The notes beneath the pieces were generated by a model. It searched no databases, had not been told where the DNA came from, and saw only the letters and a program-made list of their open reading frames with translations. From the NCBI GenBank assembly GCA_946500895.1, contig CAMMXG010000004.1:1-59202 (forward strand): a DNA stretch of 59,202 nt. The letters run 5' to 3'. This document shows positions 2 through 53,882 of the stretch, piece by piece. This DNA is from an uncultured Mycoplasma sp. (GTDB lineage: Bacteria; Bacillota_I; Bacilli_A; RF39; UBA660). Position numbers and translations under genes: made by a program. The stretch's first letter is position 1. Each line of letters begins with the position of its first letter.

Positions 2-1009
2 GGAGAAATTCCAAGAATGAATTATGTAGAAGCAGAATCAAGAATTATTAATGAATTAAAAGAAATTGGCAAACCTTTTATTGTTATTTTAAATAGTGTT
101 CATCCTACCAATACCGAAACTGTTAGAATTGCAAGAGAAATGGAAGATGCCTATGATGTTCCAGTCTTACCTATTAGTGCTGAGAAAATGAATGAAATGG
201 AAATTATGGAGATTCTCAAAAAAGCACTATATGAGTTTCCAGTTCTAGACATCAAAGTAAATGTACCAGAATGGATTGATGCCTTACCTAAGACACATGA
301 AATAAAAATGCATTTCTTAGAAAAAATTAGAGAAAGTGTTATTAGTGTAGAAAAGATTAAAGATATCGATTTTATTTTAGGTCATTTTGAAGATAGTGAA
401 TATATATCAAAATCTTATATTAGTGAACTAGATGCTGCAACTGGTACAGTTACGATTAACTTGGAAGTCCGGGAAGAACTTTATAATGAAGTACTTTCTA
501 GTATCATGGGAGATGCAGCAACAACTAAGGCTGGTTTAATCAGAATATTTGCTAATTATAAAGAATCAAAAGAAGAAATGGATTCGATTAAAGATGCTCT
601 AAAAGTAGCTCGAAATGCTGGATATGGAATTGTTTACCCAACCATTCGTGATATGAAATTAGAAACACCAGAAATTGTAAAACAAGGTTCTCGATATGGA
701 GTAAAATTAAAAGCAACTGCTTCATCAATTCACTTAATGAAAGTTGAAGTTCAATCTACATTTGAACCAATTATCGGAAGTGAAGCTCAAAGTAAAGAAC
801 TTATTAATTACTTAATGAAAGATTATGAAAAAGATCCTAATTCGATTTGGCAAAGTGAAATCTTTGGTAGAAGCTTAGAAGCAATTGTTCAAGAAGGTAT
901 TCAAGCTAAACTATCCATGATGCCCGATGCAACTCGTTATAAGCTAAGCCAAACAGTTACAAAGATTGTAAATAAAGGTGCTAATAACTTAATCGCTATT
1001 GTGCTTTAA
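2..1009 (+). CDS. spoIVA: stage IV sporulation protein A, C-terminal part (5' end outside window)
   Basis: Frame open from base 2. KEIGKPFIVILNS, QGSRYGVKLKA, FGRSLEAIVQEGIQAKL and C-terminal NLIAIVL are colinear with Bacillus SpoIVA as I recall it. Confidence 0.9.
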   Translation, partial: GEIPRMNYVEAESRIINELKEIGKPFIVILNSVHPTNTETVRIAREMEDAYDVPVLPISAEKMNEMEIMEILKKALYEFPVLDIKVNVPEWIDALPKTHEIKMHFLEKIRESVISVEKIKDIDFILGHFEDSEYISKSYISELDAATGTVTINLEVREELYNEVLSSIMGDAATTKAGLIRIFANYKESKEEMDSIKDALKVARNAGYGIVYPTIRDMKLETPEIVKQGSRYGVKLKATASSIHLMKVEVQSTFEPIIGSEAQSKELINYLMKDYEKDPNSIWQSEIFGRSLEAIVQEGIQAKLSMMPDATRYKLSQTVTKIVNKGANNLIAIVL

Positions 1010-5721: not shown

Positions 5722-6120
5722 TTAACAAACATTATTAGAATCATTTATATGAACGTATACTTGATTGTTCTTTAAATATAGTATTATACTCATATCATTT
5801 ATTGATTCATTATTAATTGGGTTTAATACATTATCATCTTTATCTGGTGATAAAGCACCACTTTCAACTAAATCATTTACTGTAATTATTAGACTTTTAT
5901 AACCATCATAAAAGGTTGTACTATTATTTAGTTCATATTCATATCCTACTGCATAAGTTTTAGCGGCACTTTCAATCATTTCTAATTTTGCACAATATAA
6001 ATTTTCTTTTGATGCATTAGTTAAATTCACAATACTTGCACTAGCAATGGTTGTTACAACAGCAAGTATAGCAATTACACATAAAAGTTCTATTAATGTA
6101 AACCCTTTTTTATTTTTCAT
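5722..6120 (-). CDS. prepilin-type N-terminal cleavage/methylation domain protein (pseudopilin/ComGC-like)
   Basis: MKNKKG|FTLIELLCVIAILAVV is a classic class III signal peptide (G-FTLIE). The start at 6120 is chosen over 6129. Confidence 0.75.
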   Translation of the reverse strand: MKNKKGFTLIELLCVIAILAVVTTIASASIVNLTNASKENLYCAKLEMIESAAKTYAVGYEYELNNSTTFYDGYKSLIITVNDLVESGALSPDKDDNVLNPINNESINDMSIILYLKNNQVYVHINDSNNVC

Positions 6121-6157
6121 ATCTAACACCCTATTTTTATTGTATCAAAATCATAAT

Positions 6158-6193
6158 ATAAAAAGTAGTTATCTTATCAAAAAGATAACTACT
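6158..6193 (-). terminator. strong intrinsic terminator between the 434-aa gene and the pilin-like gene
   Basis: AGTAGTTATCTT / AAGATAACTACT perfect 12-bp stem, followed by TTTTTAT on the minus strand. Confidence 0.8.
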
Positions 6194-6206
6194 ATTGACG
6201 TTTAGT

Positions 6207-7511
6207 TTACGCTTCAACAATTGTATATGGGTCTGAAGTTGTTCCTGAACCAGAAAACAAAGTATCTGCTTTTATATTGATTACAGGTCTTACACCAGAA
6301 GAATTATTAACTTGCCACCCATCAAAATAGCCAGTAGATTTCATTGAAAAAACACTAGTTGGATAAGGCGCAGGATTAAACCAGAATGGTGTCATTGTCC
6401 AATAATCTTGTTGATTATATAAATAAAAGCCTGTATTCATGCTTCCATATACATTACCAGCAAATACTAATTCATCGGCTGTAATTAATCCCAATGTTAC
6501 TTTTATAATATCATTCTCTTCGCACAATAAAGTAGGTCCCGCGGATCCTATATAATTCATTAATCTTCCTAAAGCTGCATAATCTATTCTACTACTTGGC
6601 ATACTATTCCAAGTGTATCCATTCGAAACATTTCGATCACTACAAAATCCTATATCGTTATCAACATACCTATCATATACATTTAAGTTACTAGTACTAT
6701 ACCACGTTTGGAGAGTATTAAGAACTGAACTATTACTTGTTTGTCCATGTTGTTGACCAATAGAATATTTTAATCCAACATATTCGCTTCTATTATAATT
6801 ATTATTAAAAATATATTCAGTTTCATTGTTTATCATAGTCTCAATGCCGGTTGTTTCTGTGCTAGGTCCATTATAAATCATTCTTACACTACCGTTACCA
6901 TTAATTCTTATGATTCGCCAATAAAATTCGCCAAATCGAACCCAATTATTAGTAATTGTTCCTCTAAAATAGTAACTTTTATTGCCTGTCCAATCTTTTG
7001 CTGAATACACACCATTAGTTGATTCATCACATACACCTGCACAACTCGTATTACTAAAGTTAGGTGTTCCGGTATCTATATCATATTTTTTAATAATTTC
7101 TAGCATTGTATTTCCAATTATATTTTTATCAAAATATAAATAACATTTACTTCCTTTTTGCAAATTAGCTATAACGTGCTCTCCATCGGCATTGGTATAC
7201 AATTTAGCATTTGTATCATTATTTACATTATCAATTGTACAATAACTTAATTCTTCATTAATAGTATAACCATTACTAGGCATCACATTTACAGCTTCAT
7301 ATTCTCCGTTATCATTTTCTTGATATATTGCCATTACTTTAAAATCATATGGAGTATAATTAATTGTTCCATTAACTAAAGGGATTGACTGTGTTGTTCT
7401 ATATTTTGCTCTTGTAAAATTTAGTATTACTGCACTAATTACTGCTATTACAACTACTCCTATTAATATATTTCTTTTTACATGACTTCTCTTTAACACT
7501 TCAAATTGCAT
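6207..7511 (-). CDS. N-terminally membrane-anchored extracellular protein of unknown function (paralog of 51542..52858)
   Basis: Single N-terminal TM segment. Blocks shared with the paralog: NFT(R/K)AKYR.TQSIPLVNGTINY, FYWRIIRINGNGS, YWTMTP, GVRPVINIKAD...DPYTI. The tail resembles WxLRSP...GVRPA modules of DUF6273-type proteins (tentative). Confidence 0.6.
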   Translation of the reverse strand: MQFEVLKRSHVKRNILIGVVVIAVISAVILNFTRAKYRTTQSIPLVNGTINYTPYDFKVMAIYQENDNGEYEAVNVMPSNGYTINEELSYCTIDNVNNDTNAKLYTNADGEHVIANLQKGSKCYLYFDKNIIGNTMLEIIKKYDIDTGTPNFSNTSCAGVCDESTNGVYSAKDWTGNKSYYFRGTITNNWVRFGEFYWRIIRINGNGSVRMIYNGPSTETTGIETMINNETEYIFNNNYNRSEYVGLKYSIGQQHGQTSNSSVLNTLQTWYSTSNLNVYDRYVDNDIGFCSDRNVSNGYTWNSMPSSRIDYAALGRLMNYIGSAGPTLLCEENDIIKVTLGLITADELVFAGNVYGSMNTGFYLYNQQDYWTMTPFWFNPAPYPTSVFSMKSTGYFDGWQVNNSSGVRPVINIKADTLFSGSGTTSDPYTIVEA

Positions 7512-7688: not shown

Positions 7689-7937
7689 ATGAATGAAGAT
7701 ATAAGATATGAAAGATTAAAAGGTCTTAGAGAAGATAGAGATTTGTTGCAAAAAGATGTTGCTAAAGTCTTGAATGTTACTCAAGTGGCCTACAGTTGCT
7801 ATGAAATTGGAAGAAGACAAATTCCAGTTGAGGCTTTGATTAAATTATCTTTATTTTATAATACTAGTGTTGATTATCTATTGGGTTTAACTGATGAGAG
7901 AAAGCCTTATCCTAAAAGTATTTTAAGTAAAAAATAA
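7689..7937 (+). CDS. XRE-family HTH transcriptional regulator
   Basis: LLQKDVAKVLNVTQVAYSCYEIGRRQIPVEALIKLSLFYNTSVDYLLGLTD. GGAGG lies 7 nt upstream and a hairpin AAATAGCT/AGCTATTT follows the stop. Confidence 0.8.
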   Translation: MNEDIRYERLKGLREDRDLLQKDVAKVLNVTQVAYSCYEIGRRQIPVEALIKLSLFYNTSVDYLLGLTDERKPYPKSILSKK

Positions 7938-7962
7938 ATAGCTGTATTAGCTATTTAACTTC

Positions 7963-7991
7963 TTGATAAAAAATTAAAAATATCATATAAT
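7963..7991 (+). promoter_or_regulatory. consensus sigma-A-type promoter firing antisense into the small-peptide gene
   Basis: TTGATA (7963-7968), 17-nt spacer, TATAAT (7986-7991). Confidence 0.5.
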
Positions 7992-7997
7992 ATACAT

Positions 7998-8240
7998 GTA
8001 AGTGTTATTCACTTGGTGGATAACACCTACTTTATCGGTAAGCGCTATGCCTTAGGCTAGCGTCTTTTCTTTTGCTCTTCTCTAATAATAGAGATAAGCA
8101 AAATTATTATAATAAGCAATAGTTTCGTATCACTCATTTGCATCCCCTCCTACTTTCGTAAAAACCCCCTGAACACTCAGTAGTTTAAACTACTAATAAA
8201 AAAGAAAGCAGGCGCTACCACCAGTTAAATAACGGTTATT
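7998..8240 (+). ncRNA. predicted antisense RNA overlapping the 26-codon peptide gene (3' end undefined)
   Basis: Inferred only from the promoter at 7963-7991. There is no ORF of note on this strand. The 5' hairpin is at 7998-8030. Confidence 0.3.
8057..8137 (-). CDS. 26-aa hydrophobic peptide MSDTKLLLIIIILLISIIREEQKKRR (type I toxin-like small membrane protein)
   Basis: ATG lies 8 nt after GGAGG (8141-8150 region). One TM-length hydrophobic run plus a charged tail. It has its own promoter and a long leader, and is below the ORF-track size cut-off. Confidence 0.5.
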   Translation of the reverse strand: MSDTKLLLIIIILLISIIREEQKKRR

Positions 8241-8241
8241 T

Positions 8242-8285
8242 ATTATGAGTGATAATACCAGAAAAATCAAGAAAAACAGTTCGAC
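8242..8285 (-). promoter_or_regulatory. promoter with upstream GTCGAAC box (locus A)
   Basis: Minus strand: GTCGAAC (8285-8279), 8 nt, TTGATT (8270-8265), 17 nt, CATAAT (8247-8242). Confidence 0.55.
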
Positions 8286-8307
8286 AAAAAACGACAAAAG
8301 CAAGAGT

Positions 8308-24929: not shown

Positions 24930-25169
24930 TTACTTTCTTTTGATAAAAAATTTATAAACTGGTATATCTAGGGTATTGGCAATATTATTGATTATATTAA
25001 TATTTAAGACTAATTCTTTTCTTTTTTCTTCAATACTTCTTATTAAATTGATATGGATACCACTTAGTTTTGCTAGTCTTTCTTCTGTTAAATATCCATA
25101 TTTCAAGTTATTAGTTCTATAAAAATAAACATTTTCACTAATTGTATTATATAATTCTTTTAAATTCAT
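24930..25169 (-). CDS. small XRE-like HTH protein
   Basis: LTEERLAKLSGIHINLIRSIEEKRK. Start moved to the ATG at 25169, because the upstream part of the track ORF is the terminator-containing leader. Confidence 0.6.
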   Translation of the reverse strand: MNLKELYNTISENVYFYRTNNLKYGYLTEERLAKLSGIHINLIRSIEEKRKELVLNINIINNIANTLDIPVYKFFIKRK

Positions 25170-25178
25170 TTTTCCACC

Positions 25179-25245
25179 AAAAAAAGCACTTGACCCCGAG
25201 GGCATATAAGCCAAAAGAGAGTTTGGAAATTTGGCCAAGTGCTTT
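25179..25245 (-). terminator. intrinsic terminator inside the 5' leader of the HTH gene (leader/sRNA of about 90 nt)
   Basis: Minus strand AAAGCACTTG ... CAAGTGCTTT 10-bp closing stem with an inner GCCAAA/TTTGGC helix, then a U7 run ending 3 nt before the GGTGG RBS. Confidence 0.55.
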
Positions 25246-25273
25246 ATCGCACAGAAAATTTCTGTACAACTAT

Positions 25274-25317
25274 ATTATATATTTACTCTCAGTAATAATC
25301 AAGCAAAAGCGTTCGAC
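25274..25317 (-). promoter_or_regulatory. promoter with upstream GTCGAAC box (locus C)
   Basis: Minus strand GTCGAAC (25317-25311), 8 nt, TTGATT (25302-25297), 17 nt, TATAAT (25279-25274). Confidence 0.6.
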
Positions 25318-25382
25318 AATTTTTGCCAATTTTAATTTTAACTCTTTTTTATATTGCTCATAAAATAAAATAGGTGATATTT

Positions 25383-53505: not shown

Positions 53506-53546
53506 CTAAGGTTTTTTTTATTATTTTCGACAAATCGTCGAATTTT

Positions 53547-53590
53547 GTCGAACGCTTTTTCTTGCTTTTTAAAGTACCATCATTCATAAT
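53547..53590 (+). promoter_or_regulatory. promoter with upstream GTCGAAC box (locus B)
   Basis: GTCGAAC (53547-53), 8 nt, TTGCTT (53562-67), 17 nt, CATAAT (53585-90). The box is part of the inverted repeat TTCGACAAA...TTTGTCGAA. Confidence 0.55.
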
Positions 53591-53596
53591 AAAGTC

Positions 53597-53831
53597 TTGA
53601 GCATTAGGCCTGGTGTCTACCAGATAATTCCTGCTATTTGTCTACCTCCTTACCTCTTGAGGTTTTGGTTGATAAACAATAGAAAGGGTTGTGTGGTTAG
53701 TATGAGGAAGTTGTTCCAAATACTTATATCGTGGTTTAGACCAAAAAAGACATCAACCACTATTATTGTGCAAAACAATATAGAGGTTAATGTCTACTCC
53801 AATAACAAGTAGGCATTTAGTCCTAATGCTC
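53597..53831 (+). ncRNA. structured leader/small RNA between the locus B promoter and the helicase gene
   Basis: 10-bp 5'-3' closure GAGCATTAGG (53599-608) / CCTAATGCTC (53822-31), hairpin CTGGTgtctACCAG, and ACCTC/GAGGT helix over a possible SD. Confidence 0.35.
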
Positions 53832-53882
53832 TACTAAATTAAGTTTAACATATTTATAATAAAATAACAAGATGGAGTTTAA

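What the first reader, a model, noticed from the sequence alone, without database searches (positions are those of the whole stretch)
7963..8285. Unannotated 26-codon hydrophobic peptide gene between convergent consensus promoters (type I toxin-antitoxin-like)
Seen: minus strand 8137-8057 encodes MSDTKLLLIIIILLISIIREEQKKRR, one TM-length hydrophobic run with a charged tail, 8 nt after GGAGG. It is driven by TTGATT-17-CATAAT (8270-8242) through a roughly 95-nt leader that starts with the hairpin AAATAAccgTTATTT. On the plus strand, TTGATA-17-TATAAT (7963-7991) fires into the same interval, so its RNA would be antisense to the whole peptide mRNA. The hairpin at 7998-8030 would be the 5' end of one RNA and the 3' end of the other. 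5' GGTAGCGCC and 3' AGCGCTTACC could also pair over long range. Established: a small membrane peptide with a strong SD, a structured UTR and an overlapping convergent RNA is the hallmark of type I TA loci (txpA/RatA, bsrG/SR4, fst/RNAII). Toxicity and antisense control are inference. The locus sits in an otherwise empty 370-bp gap after an XRE gene.
Basis: partly seen in the sequence, partly recalled or inferred. Interest (0 to 1): 0.7.

Follow-up and report, generated by a model that had tools for sequence, protein, structure and literature searches.

The report
New type I toxin-antitoxin-like cassette
A 361-bp cassette between two genes of an uncultured gut bacterium encodes a conserved 26-residue membrane-type peptide and a short convergent antisense RNA, and it looks like a previously undescribed family of RNA-controlled toxin-antitoxin modules.

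Summary
Comparison with relatives adds most of the evidence.

- The whole gap (about 7938-8298) is an insert. It is absent from the same site in five related genomes.
- It recurs at other sites and in tandem arrays: 22 distinct copies in at least 12 uncultured gut Bacilli genomes.
- Every copy keeps a 21-32 aa hydrophobic ORF under purifying selection.
- Every copy but one decayed one keeps a sigma-A promoter, a convergent near-consensus promoter and a plus-strand terminator inside the ORF end. That predicts an antisense RNA of about 75 nt.
- The mRNA's first 26 nt pair with its last 27 nt. The helix shows covariation and G-U pairs specific to the toxin-sense strand.

Three details need correcting. 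The antisense RNA covers only the ORF end and 3' UTR. The proposed long-range pair is not the conserved one. The leader "hairpin" straddles the transcription start.

Nothing matches Rfam, Pfam or NCBIfam. My best reading is a new type I toxin-antitoxin family. Toxicity and transcription are untested. The promoter carries tandem Spo0A-box-like repeats, and at least two other peptide cassette families share that promoter.

The parts
7938..8298 (.). The whole inserted cassette (about 361 bp, ends uncertain by 1-3 nt). It fills the gap between the XRE gene and the DUF975/CmpB membrane-protein gene.
   Evidence: In L001, L003, L005, L009 and L013 the membrane gene's terminator abuts the XRE stop with nothing in between. 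L002, L007, L008 and L015 carry the cassette. L004 carries a different cassette in the opposite orientation.
8280..8296 (-). Tandem repeats TGTCGTTTTTTGTCGAA with a 10-bp period, ending 9 nt upstream of the -35. They match the Spo0A 0A-box core TGTCGAA.
   Evidence: Conserved as (T/C)GTCGAAnnnTGTCGAAC in the other copies. Tandem matches in the window: 3 against 0.19 expected. The core motif is taken from PMC3485338.
8242..8270 (-). Promoter of the peptide mRNA, TTGATT-17-CATAAT. The predicted start is near 8233.
   Evidence: The -10 CATAAT is nearly invariant (a 3-nt deletion abuts it in L024). The -35 is TTG(A/C)TT in most copies.
7998..8233 (-). Predicted peptide (toxin) mRNA core, about 236 nt. 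The 3' end is not determined and may run on to the terminator at 7936-7956.
   Evidence: MFE -86 kcal/mol, z = -8.3. Consensus structure.
8208..8233 (-). 5' arm of the terminal closing helix.
   Evidence: 24 pairs, 98% of cells paired, 4 pairs with compensatory changes and 9 with one-sided changes. Duplex energy -31 to -41 kcal/mol in the 21 intact copies against -12 for shuffles.
8004..8030 (-). 3' arm of the closing helix. It can alternatively form the local hairpin GTGTTATCCACcaaGTGAATAACAC.
8177..8196 (-). Invariant 5' UTR hairpin TTAGTAGTTTAAACTACTGA.
   Evidence: The closing base pairs covary in the more distant copies.
8144..8150 (-). Shine-Dalgarno GGAGGGG. It is predicted to pair with the upstream CU-rich tract at 8211-8197.
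   Evidence: Mean unpaired probability of the SD region is 0.19.
8057..8137 (-). ORF of 26 codons plus stop: MSDTKLLLIIIILLISIIREEQKKRR.
   Evidence: Open in 22 of 22 copies (21-32 aa). Indels are in frame and pN/pS is mostly 0-0.3.
8111..8138 (-). Local hairpin that buries the start codon.
   Evidence: Unpaired probability of the AUG is 0.01-0.08 in most copies. Covarying pairs, for example GC in 14 copies and AU in 8.
7963..7991 (+). Promoter of the antisense RNA, TTGATA-17-TATAAT. The predicted start is near 7998.
   Evidence: 11 of 12 consensus positions. The position is conserved in all intact copies, although the sequence beyond it differs.
7998..8073 (+). Predicted antisense (antitoxin) RNA of about 75 nt. 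It has a 5' stem-loop at 7998-8030, a single-stranded linker at 8031-8041, a terminator hairpin at 8042-8063 and a U tract at 8065-8073. It overlaps the stop codon and the last 4-5 codons.
   Evidence: MFE -27.7 kcal/mol, z = -4.3. The consensus of 22 copies has the same three parts. The A run on the sense strand is conserved even where it lies after the stop codon.
8031..8041 (.). Hypervariable linker, a candidate copy-specific recognition site between mRNA and antisense RNA.
   Evidence: 35% mean pairwise identity against 73-79% in the flanks. It differs among copies of one genome.
7936..7956 (-). Extra hairpin AAATAGCTaatacAGCTATTT followed by ATTTTTT. It is terminator-like for minus-strand read-through and is present only in the syntenic subgroup of copies.

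Best explanation
This is a self-contained type I toxin-antitoxin-like module of a family not described before.

**The mRNA.** The minus strand gives an mRNA of about 236 nt (or longer) for a 26-aa peptide rich in Ile and Leu, with a charged tail. The peptide is presumed to damage membranes when made. The mRNA is built to be stable and poorly translated:
- its first 26 nt pair with its last 27 nt, which closes the molecule;
- the SD pairs with an upstream CU-rich tract;
- the AUG sits in a local hairpin.

**The antisense RNA.** A convergent promoter closer to consensus gives an RNA of about 75 nt. It ends at its own terminator inside the ORF end. It is perfectly complementary to the last codons and to the 3' UTR, including the 3' arm of the closing helix.

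**Proposed mechanism.**
1. Pairing starts at the single-stranded, copy-specific linker and spreads.
2. Spreading displaces the mRNA's 5' arm and forms a long duplex.
3. The duplex is cut (RNase III type) and the freed ends decay.
4. When the antisense RNA runs short, the closed mRNA persists and the peptide is made.

**Possible regulation.** Tandem TGTCGAA boxes upstream of the toxin promoter suggest control by Spo0A or a similar factor.

**What is shown and what is inferred.** Shown: the sequence anatomy, conservation, covariation, purifying selection, and the mobility and copy-number pattern. Inferred: transcription, toxicity, the order of pairing events, the nuclease and the regulator.
For: - ORF real and selected: 22 of 22 copies are open, indels are in frame, and pN is well below pS. 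Examples: window vs L031, pS 0.25 and pN 0.02; L073a vs L073b, 4 synonymous and 0 nonsynonymous changes.
- Antisense gene: promoter 11 of 12, fixed in position in all intact copies. A terminator hairpin with covariation and a U tract.
- Closing helix: 98% of cells paired, 4 compensatory pairs, many G-U pairs. The duplex is always more stable on the sense strand than on the opposite strand.
- SD and AUG are masked.
- Typical type I TA behaviour: empty sites in relatives, at least 3 copies in single genomes, and tandem arrays of 4 and 2.
- One copy (L025) has lost both promoter spacers, the ATG, the frame of its tail and most of the closing helix together.
- The 3'-overlap architecture matches Gram-positive families (PMC8594479). 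A hydrophobic N-terminal part with a charged C-terminus matches known toxins (PMC6563280).
Against: - There is no expression, toxicity or neutralisation data of any kind.
- There is no homology to any known toxin or antitoxin RNA.
- The hydrophobic run is only 13-16 residues. The peptides (21-32 aa) are mostly shorter than the 28-60 aa reported for Gram-positive type I toxins.
- The 3' end of the mRNA is not defined by a clear terminator in most copies.
- Blocking the 3' arm in silico does not open the SD, so the role of the closing helix is unclear.
- All copies come from a narrow clade, so covariation counts rest on few independent events.
Confidence: 0.68

Rival explanations
1. A non-toxic small membrane protein with a physiological role, tuned by a cis-antisense RNA. 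It could be a stationary-phase or sporulation-linked peptide. The module would be regulatory rather than addictive or toxic.
For: The peptide is conserved under purifying selection. The promoter carries 0A-box-like repeats, and the organism encodes SpoIVA, so it is from a spore-forming lineage. The same promoter motif heads ordinary genes such as csp. Many small membrane proteins of Gram-positives are not toxins (PMC10730256, listed; I did not read it in detail).
Against: Presence or absence between close relatives, several divergent paralogs and tandem arrays per genome, rapidly diverging peptide subtypes, a decayed copy, and heavy masking of SD and AUG all fit a selfish or toxic module better than a housekeeping peptide.
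Confidence: 0.2
2. Primarily a mobile or structural DNA/RNA element, with an incidental ORF. It would be a miniature inverted-repeat cassette or an sRNA pair.
For: The ends are imperfect inverted repeats (arms 7999-8019 and 8218-8238). The element is multi-copy and shows insertion polymorphism. The non-coding parts are better conserved than the peptide. Related cassettes without an obvious ORF exist (L076, L086, L126, L135).
Against: The ORF is open in 22 of 22 copies, with in-frame indels and pN well below pS. The SD is at optimal spacing. G-U pairs make the helix specific to the sense-strand RNA rather than the DNA. I saw no target-site duplication and no transposase association.
Confidence: 0.07
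3. Ordinary intergenic terminator or insulator sequence serving the convergent XRE and membrane-protein genes.
For: It lies between convergent genes and contains hairpins.
Against: Relatives manage with one bidirectional terminator and no insert. The same cassette occurs in unrelated contexts.
Confidence: 0.02

Closest known systems
txpA/RatA and bsrG/SR4 (also bsrE/SR5, yonT/SR6, SprG/SprF): Gram-positive type I TA with 3'-overlapping antisense RNA
   Same: Convergent genes. The antisense RNA lies on the 3' side and overlaps the ORF end and the 3' UTR (PMC8594479). The toxin is small and hydrophobic with a charged C-terminus. The RNA duplex is a likely RNase III substrate (PMC6563280).
   Different: There is no sequence or profile match for the peptide or the RNA. 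The peptides are 21-32 aa against 28-60 aa. The location is chromosomal intergenic hot spots rather than prophage or skin elements. To my knowledge, a 24-28 bp helix joining the mRNA's two ends is not a described feature of those families.
hok/Sok and aapA/IsoA (Gram-negative type I TA with a 5'-3' long-distance interaction)
   Same: The full-length toxin mRNA is closed by pairing of its 5' and 3' ends and is highly stable and structured. The SD is masked by CU-rich elements. The loci are multi-copy and chromosomal (PMC6733600).
   Different: In those systems the 3' element is itself the anti-SD, and 3' trimming activates translation. Here the 3' arm pairs with the extreme 5' end, and removing it does not open the SD in predictions. 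There the antisense RNA targets the 5' or translation-initiation region. Here it covers the 3' arm itself. There is no homology, and the host is a Firmicute.
par (fst/RNAII) of Enterococcus and the Fst/Ldr superfamily
   Same: Firmicute host, convergent promoters, a tiny toxin with a hydrophobic helix and a charged tail, and repeated sequence at the two transcript starts.
   Different: From my own knowledge, in par the repeats are direct, so the two RNAs' 5' ends are complementary, and the two RNAs share a bidirectional terminator. Here the repeats are inverted, so the two 5' ends resemble each other and the mRNA's 5' end pairs with its own 3' end. The antisense terminator lies inside the mRNA. 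There is no hit to Pfam toxin models at E up to 10.
Ibs/Sib of E. coli
   Same: Very short toxin rich in Ile, Leu and Val (18-19 aa there, 21-32 aa here). Several diverged copies per genome, each with cognate-specific antisense recognition.
   Different: Sib spans the entire ORF (PMC8594479). The host is a proteobacterium. There is no homology.
Clostridioides difficile type I TA modules (for example CD2517.1/RCd8)
   Same: Spore-forming Firmicute. Hydrophobic N-terminal part and Lys-rich C-terminal part. Stable toxin mRNA with a short antisense RNA (PMC6563280).
   Different: Those toxins are 34-59 aa. They are linked to prophages and CRISPR arrays and have sigma-B promoters. There is no sequence similarity.

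Membership tests
Type I toxin-antitoxin systems (class) | Small (<60 aa) hydrophobic peptide ORF with its own ribosome-binding site | tested here: met
   A 26-aa ORF with GGAGG 8 nt upstream. It is open and under purifying selection in 22 copies.
Type I toxin-antitoxin systems (class) | A gene for an antisense RNA complementary to the toxin mRNA | tested here: met
   At sequence level only. There is a conserved convergent promoter (11 of 12) and a conserved intrinsic terminator, which define an RNA of about 75 nt.
Type I toxin-antitoxin systems (class) | Both RNAs are actually made; the toxin mRNA is stable and the antitoxin labile or more abundant | not testable with these tools
   No transcriptome data are available. 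The only indirect hints are that the antisense promoter is closer to consensus than the toxin promoter and that the mRNA has a closed structure.
Type I toxin-antitoxin systems (class) | The peptide is toxic on overexpression and the RNA neutralises it | not testable with these tools
   This needs an experiment.
TxpA/RatA - BsrG/SR4 group | Antisense RNA on the 3' side that overlaps the ORF end | tested here: met
   The antisense RNA at 7998-8073 overlaps the ORF from 8057 to about 8073. The architecture is described in PMC8594479.
TxpA/RatA - BsrG/SR4 group | Homology of the toxin or antitoxin RNA to family members | tested here: not met
   The Rfam scan at E up to 10 gave no antitoxin family. 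Pfam and NCBIfam at E up to 10 gave nothing.
Fst/RNAII (par) | Fst-type toxin; the RNAs interact through 5' repeats outside the overlap and share a bidirectional terminator | tested here: not met
   No profile hit. The repeats are inverted rather than direct. The antisense terminator is internal to the mRNA.
hok/Sok and aapA/IsoA | 5'-3' long-distance interaction that closes the full-length mRNA | tested here: met
   A helix of 24 pairs with covariation. Its energy is -31 to -41 kcal/mol against -12 for shuffles.
hok/Sok and aapA/IsoA | The 3' element is the anti-SD, so that 3' trimming frees the SD | tested here: not met
   The 3' arm pairs with the extreme 5' end. With the 3' part blocked, the SD stays paired in 13 of 13 copies. 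This is a thermodynamic prediction only.
hok/Sok and aapA/IsoA | Antisense RNA targets the 5' UTR or start region; toxin homology | tested here: not met
   The antisense RNA is at the 3' end. No Pfam hit.
Spo0A-controlled promoters | 0A box (TGTCGAA) at the promoter | tested here: met
   The tandem TGTCGTTTTTTGTCGAA lies at 8296-8280, and the boxes are near-perfect in the other copies. The motif occurs 11 times in the window against 3.5 expected. The core motif is taken from PMC3485338.
Spo0A-controlled promoters | The organism encodes Spo0A and Spo0A binds the site | not tested
   Only SpoIVA was seen, at window 17-1009. Whole genomes could not be queried.

The most novel reading that the evidence does not exclude
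The cassette is one payload of a chassis-and-payload superfamily. The chassis is a conserved promoter with tandem Spo0A boxes, a helix joining the two mRNA ends, and a convergent antisense promoter. It carries at least three unrelated small peptides. These are swapped, duplicated and lost at chromosomal hot spots of spore-forming gut Bacilli. Under this reading, toxin transcription would be gated by the sporulation master regulator. The terminal helix would be the first hok/aapA-like 5'-3' closure in a Gram-positive type I TA system, and here it would be competed for directly by an antisense RNA whose 5' end mimics the mRNA's 5' end.
Probability: 0.3. Interest if true: 0.8.

Novelty: new variant of a known kind. 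Interest (0 to 1): 0.6.

Why it matters
- **Where type I TA systems are known.** Type I toxin-antitoxin systems are catalogued almost entirely from cultured model bacteria. The T1TAdb paper lists 24 families, and its text does not mention Mollicutes or Tenericutes. This cassette would add a family from uncultured gut Bacilli that annotation pipelines miss, because the ORF is shorter than usual gene-calling limits.
- **An unusual combination of designs.** It joins two designs that have been described separately: the Gram-positive 3'-overlapping antisense RNA and the Gram-negative 5'-3' closure of the toxin mRNA. The 22 natural variants already provide covariation data. That makes it a compact system for asking what a terminal helix does when it is not the anti-SD.
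- **A possible link to sporulation.** The shared promoter with Spo0A-box repeats, if functional, would tie small-toxin expression to the decision to sporulate.
- **A search handle.** The promoter's 20-mer is a practical probe for finding more unannotated small-peptide cassettes.

Tried and rejected
- **Rfam.** The region at E up to 10 gave only chance hits (IsrR 15.6 bits against a gathering score of 52). The whole window at gathering thresholds gave only tRNAs.
- **Pfam and NCBIfam.** Seven peptides at E up to 10 gave nothing.
- **BLAST against phages and plasmids.** Only the XRE gene matched, weakly.
- **Viral contig scan for the 20-mer.** No match.
- **The search for homologous proteins.** Whether any database names this peptide is therefore unknown.
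- **Spo0A.** A tblastn search with a Spo0A C-terminal domain, written from memory, against all held loci gave no hits. This says little, because only fragments of genomes are held.
Rejected in favour of 8233-8208 with 8030-8004.
Rejected as an RNA feature, because it straddles the predicted start.
- **"3' trimming or antisense binding opens the SD".** Not supported by constrained folding.
- **The 10-nt perfect complement between 8254-8245 and 8137-8128.** Not conserved and upstream of the start, so I treated it as chance.
- **cre (CcpA) and LexA readings of the promoter motif.** Considered by eye and dropped because the spacing does not fit.
- **L028 and L034.** Chance matches to the 19- and 20-mer.

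Full report
**1. What is in the sequence**

The 370-bp gap lies between an 82-aa XRE/HTH gene (7689-7937, plus strand) and a 536-aa DUF975 + CmpB membrane-protein gene (9918-8308, minus strand). It holds, on the minus strand:
- the ORF 8143/8137..8057, (MQ)MSDTKLLLIIIILLISIIREEQKKRR;
- GGAGG at 8150-8146, 8 nt before the ATG at 8137;
- TTGATT-17-CATAAT at 8270-8242.

On the plus strand it holds TTGATA-17-TATAAT at 7963-7991, matching 11 of 12 consensus positions, followed by the hairpin 7998-8030. Promoter-like matches are not enriched in this AT-rich stretch: 10 found against 8.9 expected. The case therefore has to rest on comparison with relatives.

**2. The gap is an insert, and the insert is a repeated cassette**

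Relatives of the membrane protein were fetched from species-representative genomes. They are uncultured gut "Bacilli", "Tenericutes" or "Mycoplasma sp. CAG:776" assemblies.
- In L001, L003, L005, L009 and L013 the membrane gene's terminator is followed directly by the end of the XRE gene.
- In L002, L007, L008 and L015 the same roughly 361-bp cassette is present.
- In L004 a different cassette sits at that site in the opposite orientation.

A 19-mer from the 5' UTR found the cassette at other genomic sites in the same and other genomes. A profile search of everything fetched found more, including four copies in tandem (L114) and two in tandem (L073). In all there are 22 distinct copies in at least 12 genomes, with at least 3 copies in single genomes (MAG.262, BRZ_DD bin71, BRZ_NT bin122). 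Nothing similar is in the phage, plasmid or viral collections.

**3. The ORF is a real gene**

- All 22 copies keep an ORF of 21-32 aa that starts at the position of window 8137. In most copies the upstream ATG is followed at once by TAA, so 8137 is the start.
- The peptides fall into subtypes that share an IIII(L/M)L core:
  - MSDTKLLLIIIILLISIIR...
  - MSDMTLLLIIIIMLIQKDNHEKRR
  - M.EEK.YL.IIIILL.LVLLK..
  - MKKDNILLVIIILLIVVILRLI
- Length differences inside the ORF are 3 or 9 nt.
- Pairwise pN is far below pS. Examples: pS 0.25 and pN 0.02; pS 0.29 and pN 0.03; pS 0.27 and pN 0.00.
- The hydrophobic run is 13-16 residues. That is Ibs-like and short for a full membrane span.

**4. The antisense gene**

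In all intact copies a -35/17/-10 promoter lies at the same distance beyond the 3' hairpin. It reads TTGATA, TTGTAA, TTGTAT, TTGCTA or TTGTTA at -35 and TATAAT or TATATT at -10. The sequence further out is unrelated between sites.

On the plus strand the RNA would start near 7998. It folds into three parts (-27.7 kcal/mol, z = -4.3):
- a 5' stem-loop (7998-8030);
- a single-stranded linker (8031-8041);
- a hairpin (8042-8063) followed by UCUUUUCUUUU (8064-8074).

The 22-copy consensus has the same three parts, and the terminator stem covaries. The A run that encodes the U tract is conserved even in copies where it lies after the stop codon. This argues that it serves the plus strand. The antisense RNA is therefore about 75 nt. 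It covers only the stop codon, the last 4-5 codons and the 3' UTR, not the whole mRNA.

**5. The mRNA structure**

- From the predicted start (about 8233) to 7998, the sense RNA folds at -86 kcal/mol. Shuffles give -50.7 +/- 4.2, so z = -8.3.
- The consensus structure is dominated by a helix between the first 26 nt and the last 27 nt. It has 24 pairs with 98% of cells paired. Four pairs show compensatory changes and nine show one-sided changes, mostly between G-C and G-U. It is confirmed on 22 sequences.
- Taken alone, the two arms give -31 to -41 kcal/mol in the 21 intact copies, against about -12 +/- 3 for shuffled arms. The duplex is always weaker if the opposite strand is folded. So the constraint acts on the sense RNA, not on the DNA.
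- The SD pairs with the CU-rich tract just 3' of the 5' arm, and the AUG sits in a local hairpin. Unpaired probabilities are about 0.1-0.5 for the SD and 0.01-0.08 for the AUG in most copies.
- Blocking the 3' part, to mimic antisense binding or trimming, does not open the SD in these predictions.
AGCGC belongs to the antisense terminator hairpin.
- The linker is hypervariable: 35% identity against 73-79% for its flanks. It differs among paralogs of one genome.

**6. A decayed copy**

L025/L008 has 10-nt deletions in both promoter spacers, a TTG start, a frameshifted tail, and a closing helix of only -16.9 kcal/mol. The features degrade together, as expected if they form one functional unit.

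**7. Mechanism**

The anatomy fits the Gram-positive type I TA layout, with the antisense RNA on the 3' side overlapping the ORF end (PMC8594479). It also fits the general traits of such toxins (PMC6563280). The 5'-3' closure recalls hok and aapA/IsoA (PMC6733600). It differs in that its 3' arm is not the anti-SD.

I propose the following. The mRNA is a stable, translationally quiet rod. The antisense RNA's 5' end resembles the mRNA's own 5' arm. It nucleates at the linker, invades the closing helix, and converts the 3' third of the mRNA into a duplex for RNase III-type cleavage. Loss of the antisense RNA lets the peptide be made. Every step after the sequence features is inference.

**8. Promoter motif and wider family**

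- Upstream of the -35 lie two TGTCGAA-like boxes with a 10-bp period (8296-8280). TGTCGAA is the Spo0A 0A-box core (PMC3485338).
- The window encodes SpoIVA (17-1009), so the lineage forms spores despite its "Mycoplasma" label.
- The motif is enriched in the window: 11 occurrences against 3.5 expected.
- The 20-mer TTGTCGAACGNTTTTTCTTG occurs in more than 113 loci of gut Clostridia and Bacilli. It lies before csp genes, conjugation genes and other small cassettes.
- In the Bacilli relatives it also heads at least two other peptide cassette families with the same layout. One is in this window at about 53530-53860.

**9. Comparison and novelty**

There is no hit in Rfam, Pfam or NCBIfam. Literature searches for type I TA in Mollicutes or metagenomes found nothing relevant. 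I file it as a new family within the type I TA kind, with an unusual combination of features. Interest is 0.6. Confidence that it works as a type I TA module is about 0.68.

Noticed in passing
window 53530-53860 (+): A second small-peptide cassette with the same promoter: CGTCGAATTTTGTCGAACGCTTTTTCTTGCTT-17-CATAAT. It has a 10-bp closing helix (GAGCATTAGG with CCTAATGCTC) and a convergent promoter. Its ORF is unrelated: ATG at 53702, MRKLFQILISWFRPKKTSTTIIVQNNIEVNVYSNNK. The RNA folds at -77.7 kcal/mol, z = -5.3. Homologous cassettes are in L004, L049, L052, L060, L064, L065 and others.
   Followed up: partly
L030 2356-2720; L114 2200-3600; L073 4925-5560: Cassettes occur in tandem and in mixed arrays. 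L030 has a family-1 copy followed by a third family (MKVRLKVILPRIIKIALVLEIVTNAKTKNNRH). L114 has four family-1 copies of three peptide subtypes. The site downstream of a gene ending ...PKYLK* holds different cassettes in different genomes (window 53.5 kb, L022, L024, L030, L033).
   Followed up: partly
window 8280-8296, 25312-25328, 53536-53552; loci L041-L151: The 20-mer TTGTCGAACGNTTTTTCTTG (a Spo0A-box-like repeat plus the -35) is found in more than 113 loci of gut Clostridia, Lachnospiraceae, Blautia, Erysipelotrichales and Bacilli. It lies before cold-shock genes, conjugation-type genes and small cassettes. Conservation this exact across classes is unexplained.
   Followed up: partly
window 25180-25330 (-): The same promoter motif with a consensus -10. 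It is followed by a structured RNA of about 100 nt that ends in a terminator (AAGCACTTGGCC...GGGGTCAAGTGCTTTTTTT), just before a small ORF at 25169. It is conserved in L080 and L109. It could be an attenuator or an sRNA. No Rfam hit.
   Followed up: no
L076, L086, L126, L135: Cassettes of about 100 nt with the same promoter and a closing helix (GCGTAGTTCTGAAA...TTTCAGAACTAC) but no obvious ORF. They may be sRNA members of the superfamily.
   Followed up: no
window 17-1009 (+): A SpoIVA homolog (all three Pfam domains). The organism therefore belongs to an endospore-forming lineage, although its nearest named relatives are labelled Mycoplasma, Tenericutes or Mycoplasmatota.
   Followed up: partly
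window 5722-7511 (-): A prepilin-type (N_methyl) protein gene lies next to a 434-aa protein with an N-terminal hydrophobic segment and no Pfam match. Together they flank the XRE gene and may be part of a pseudopilus or competence-like cluster.
   Followed up: no
L008/L025 (BRZ_EH bin21), syntenic copy: A decayed copy of the cassette. It has 10-nt deletions in both promoter spacers, a TTG start, a frameshifted C-terminus and a weakened closing helix.
   Followed up: yes
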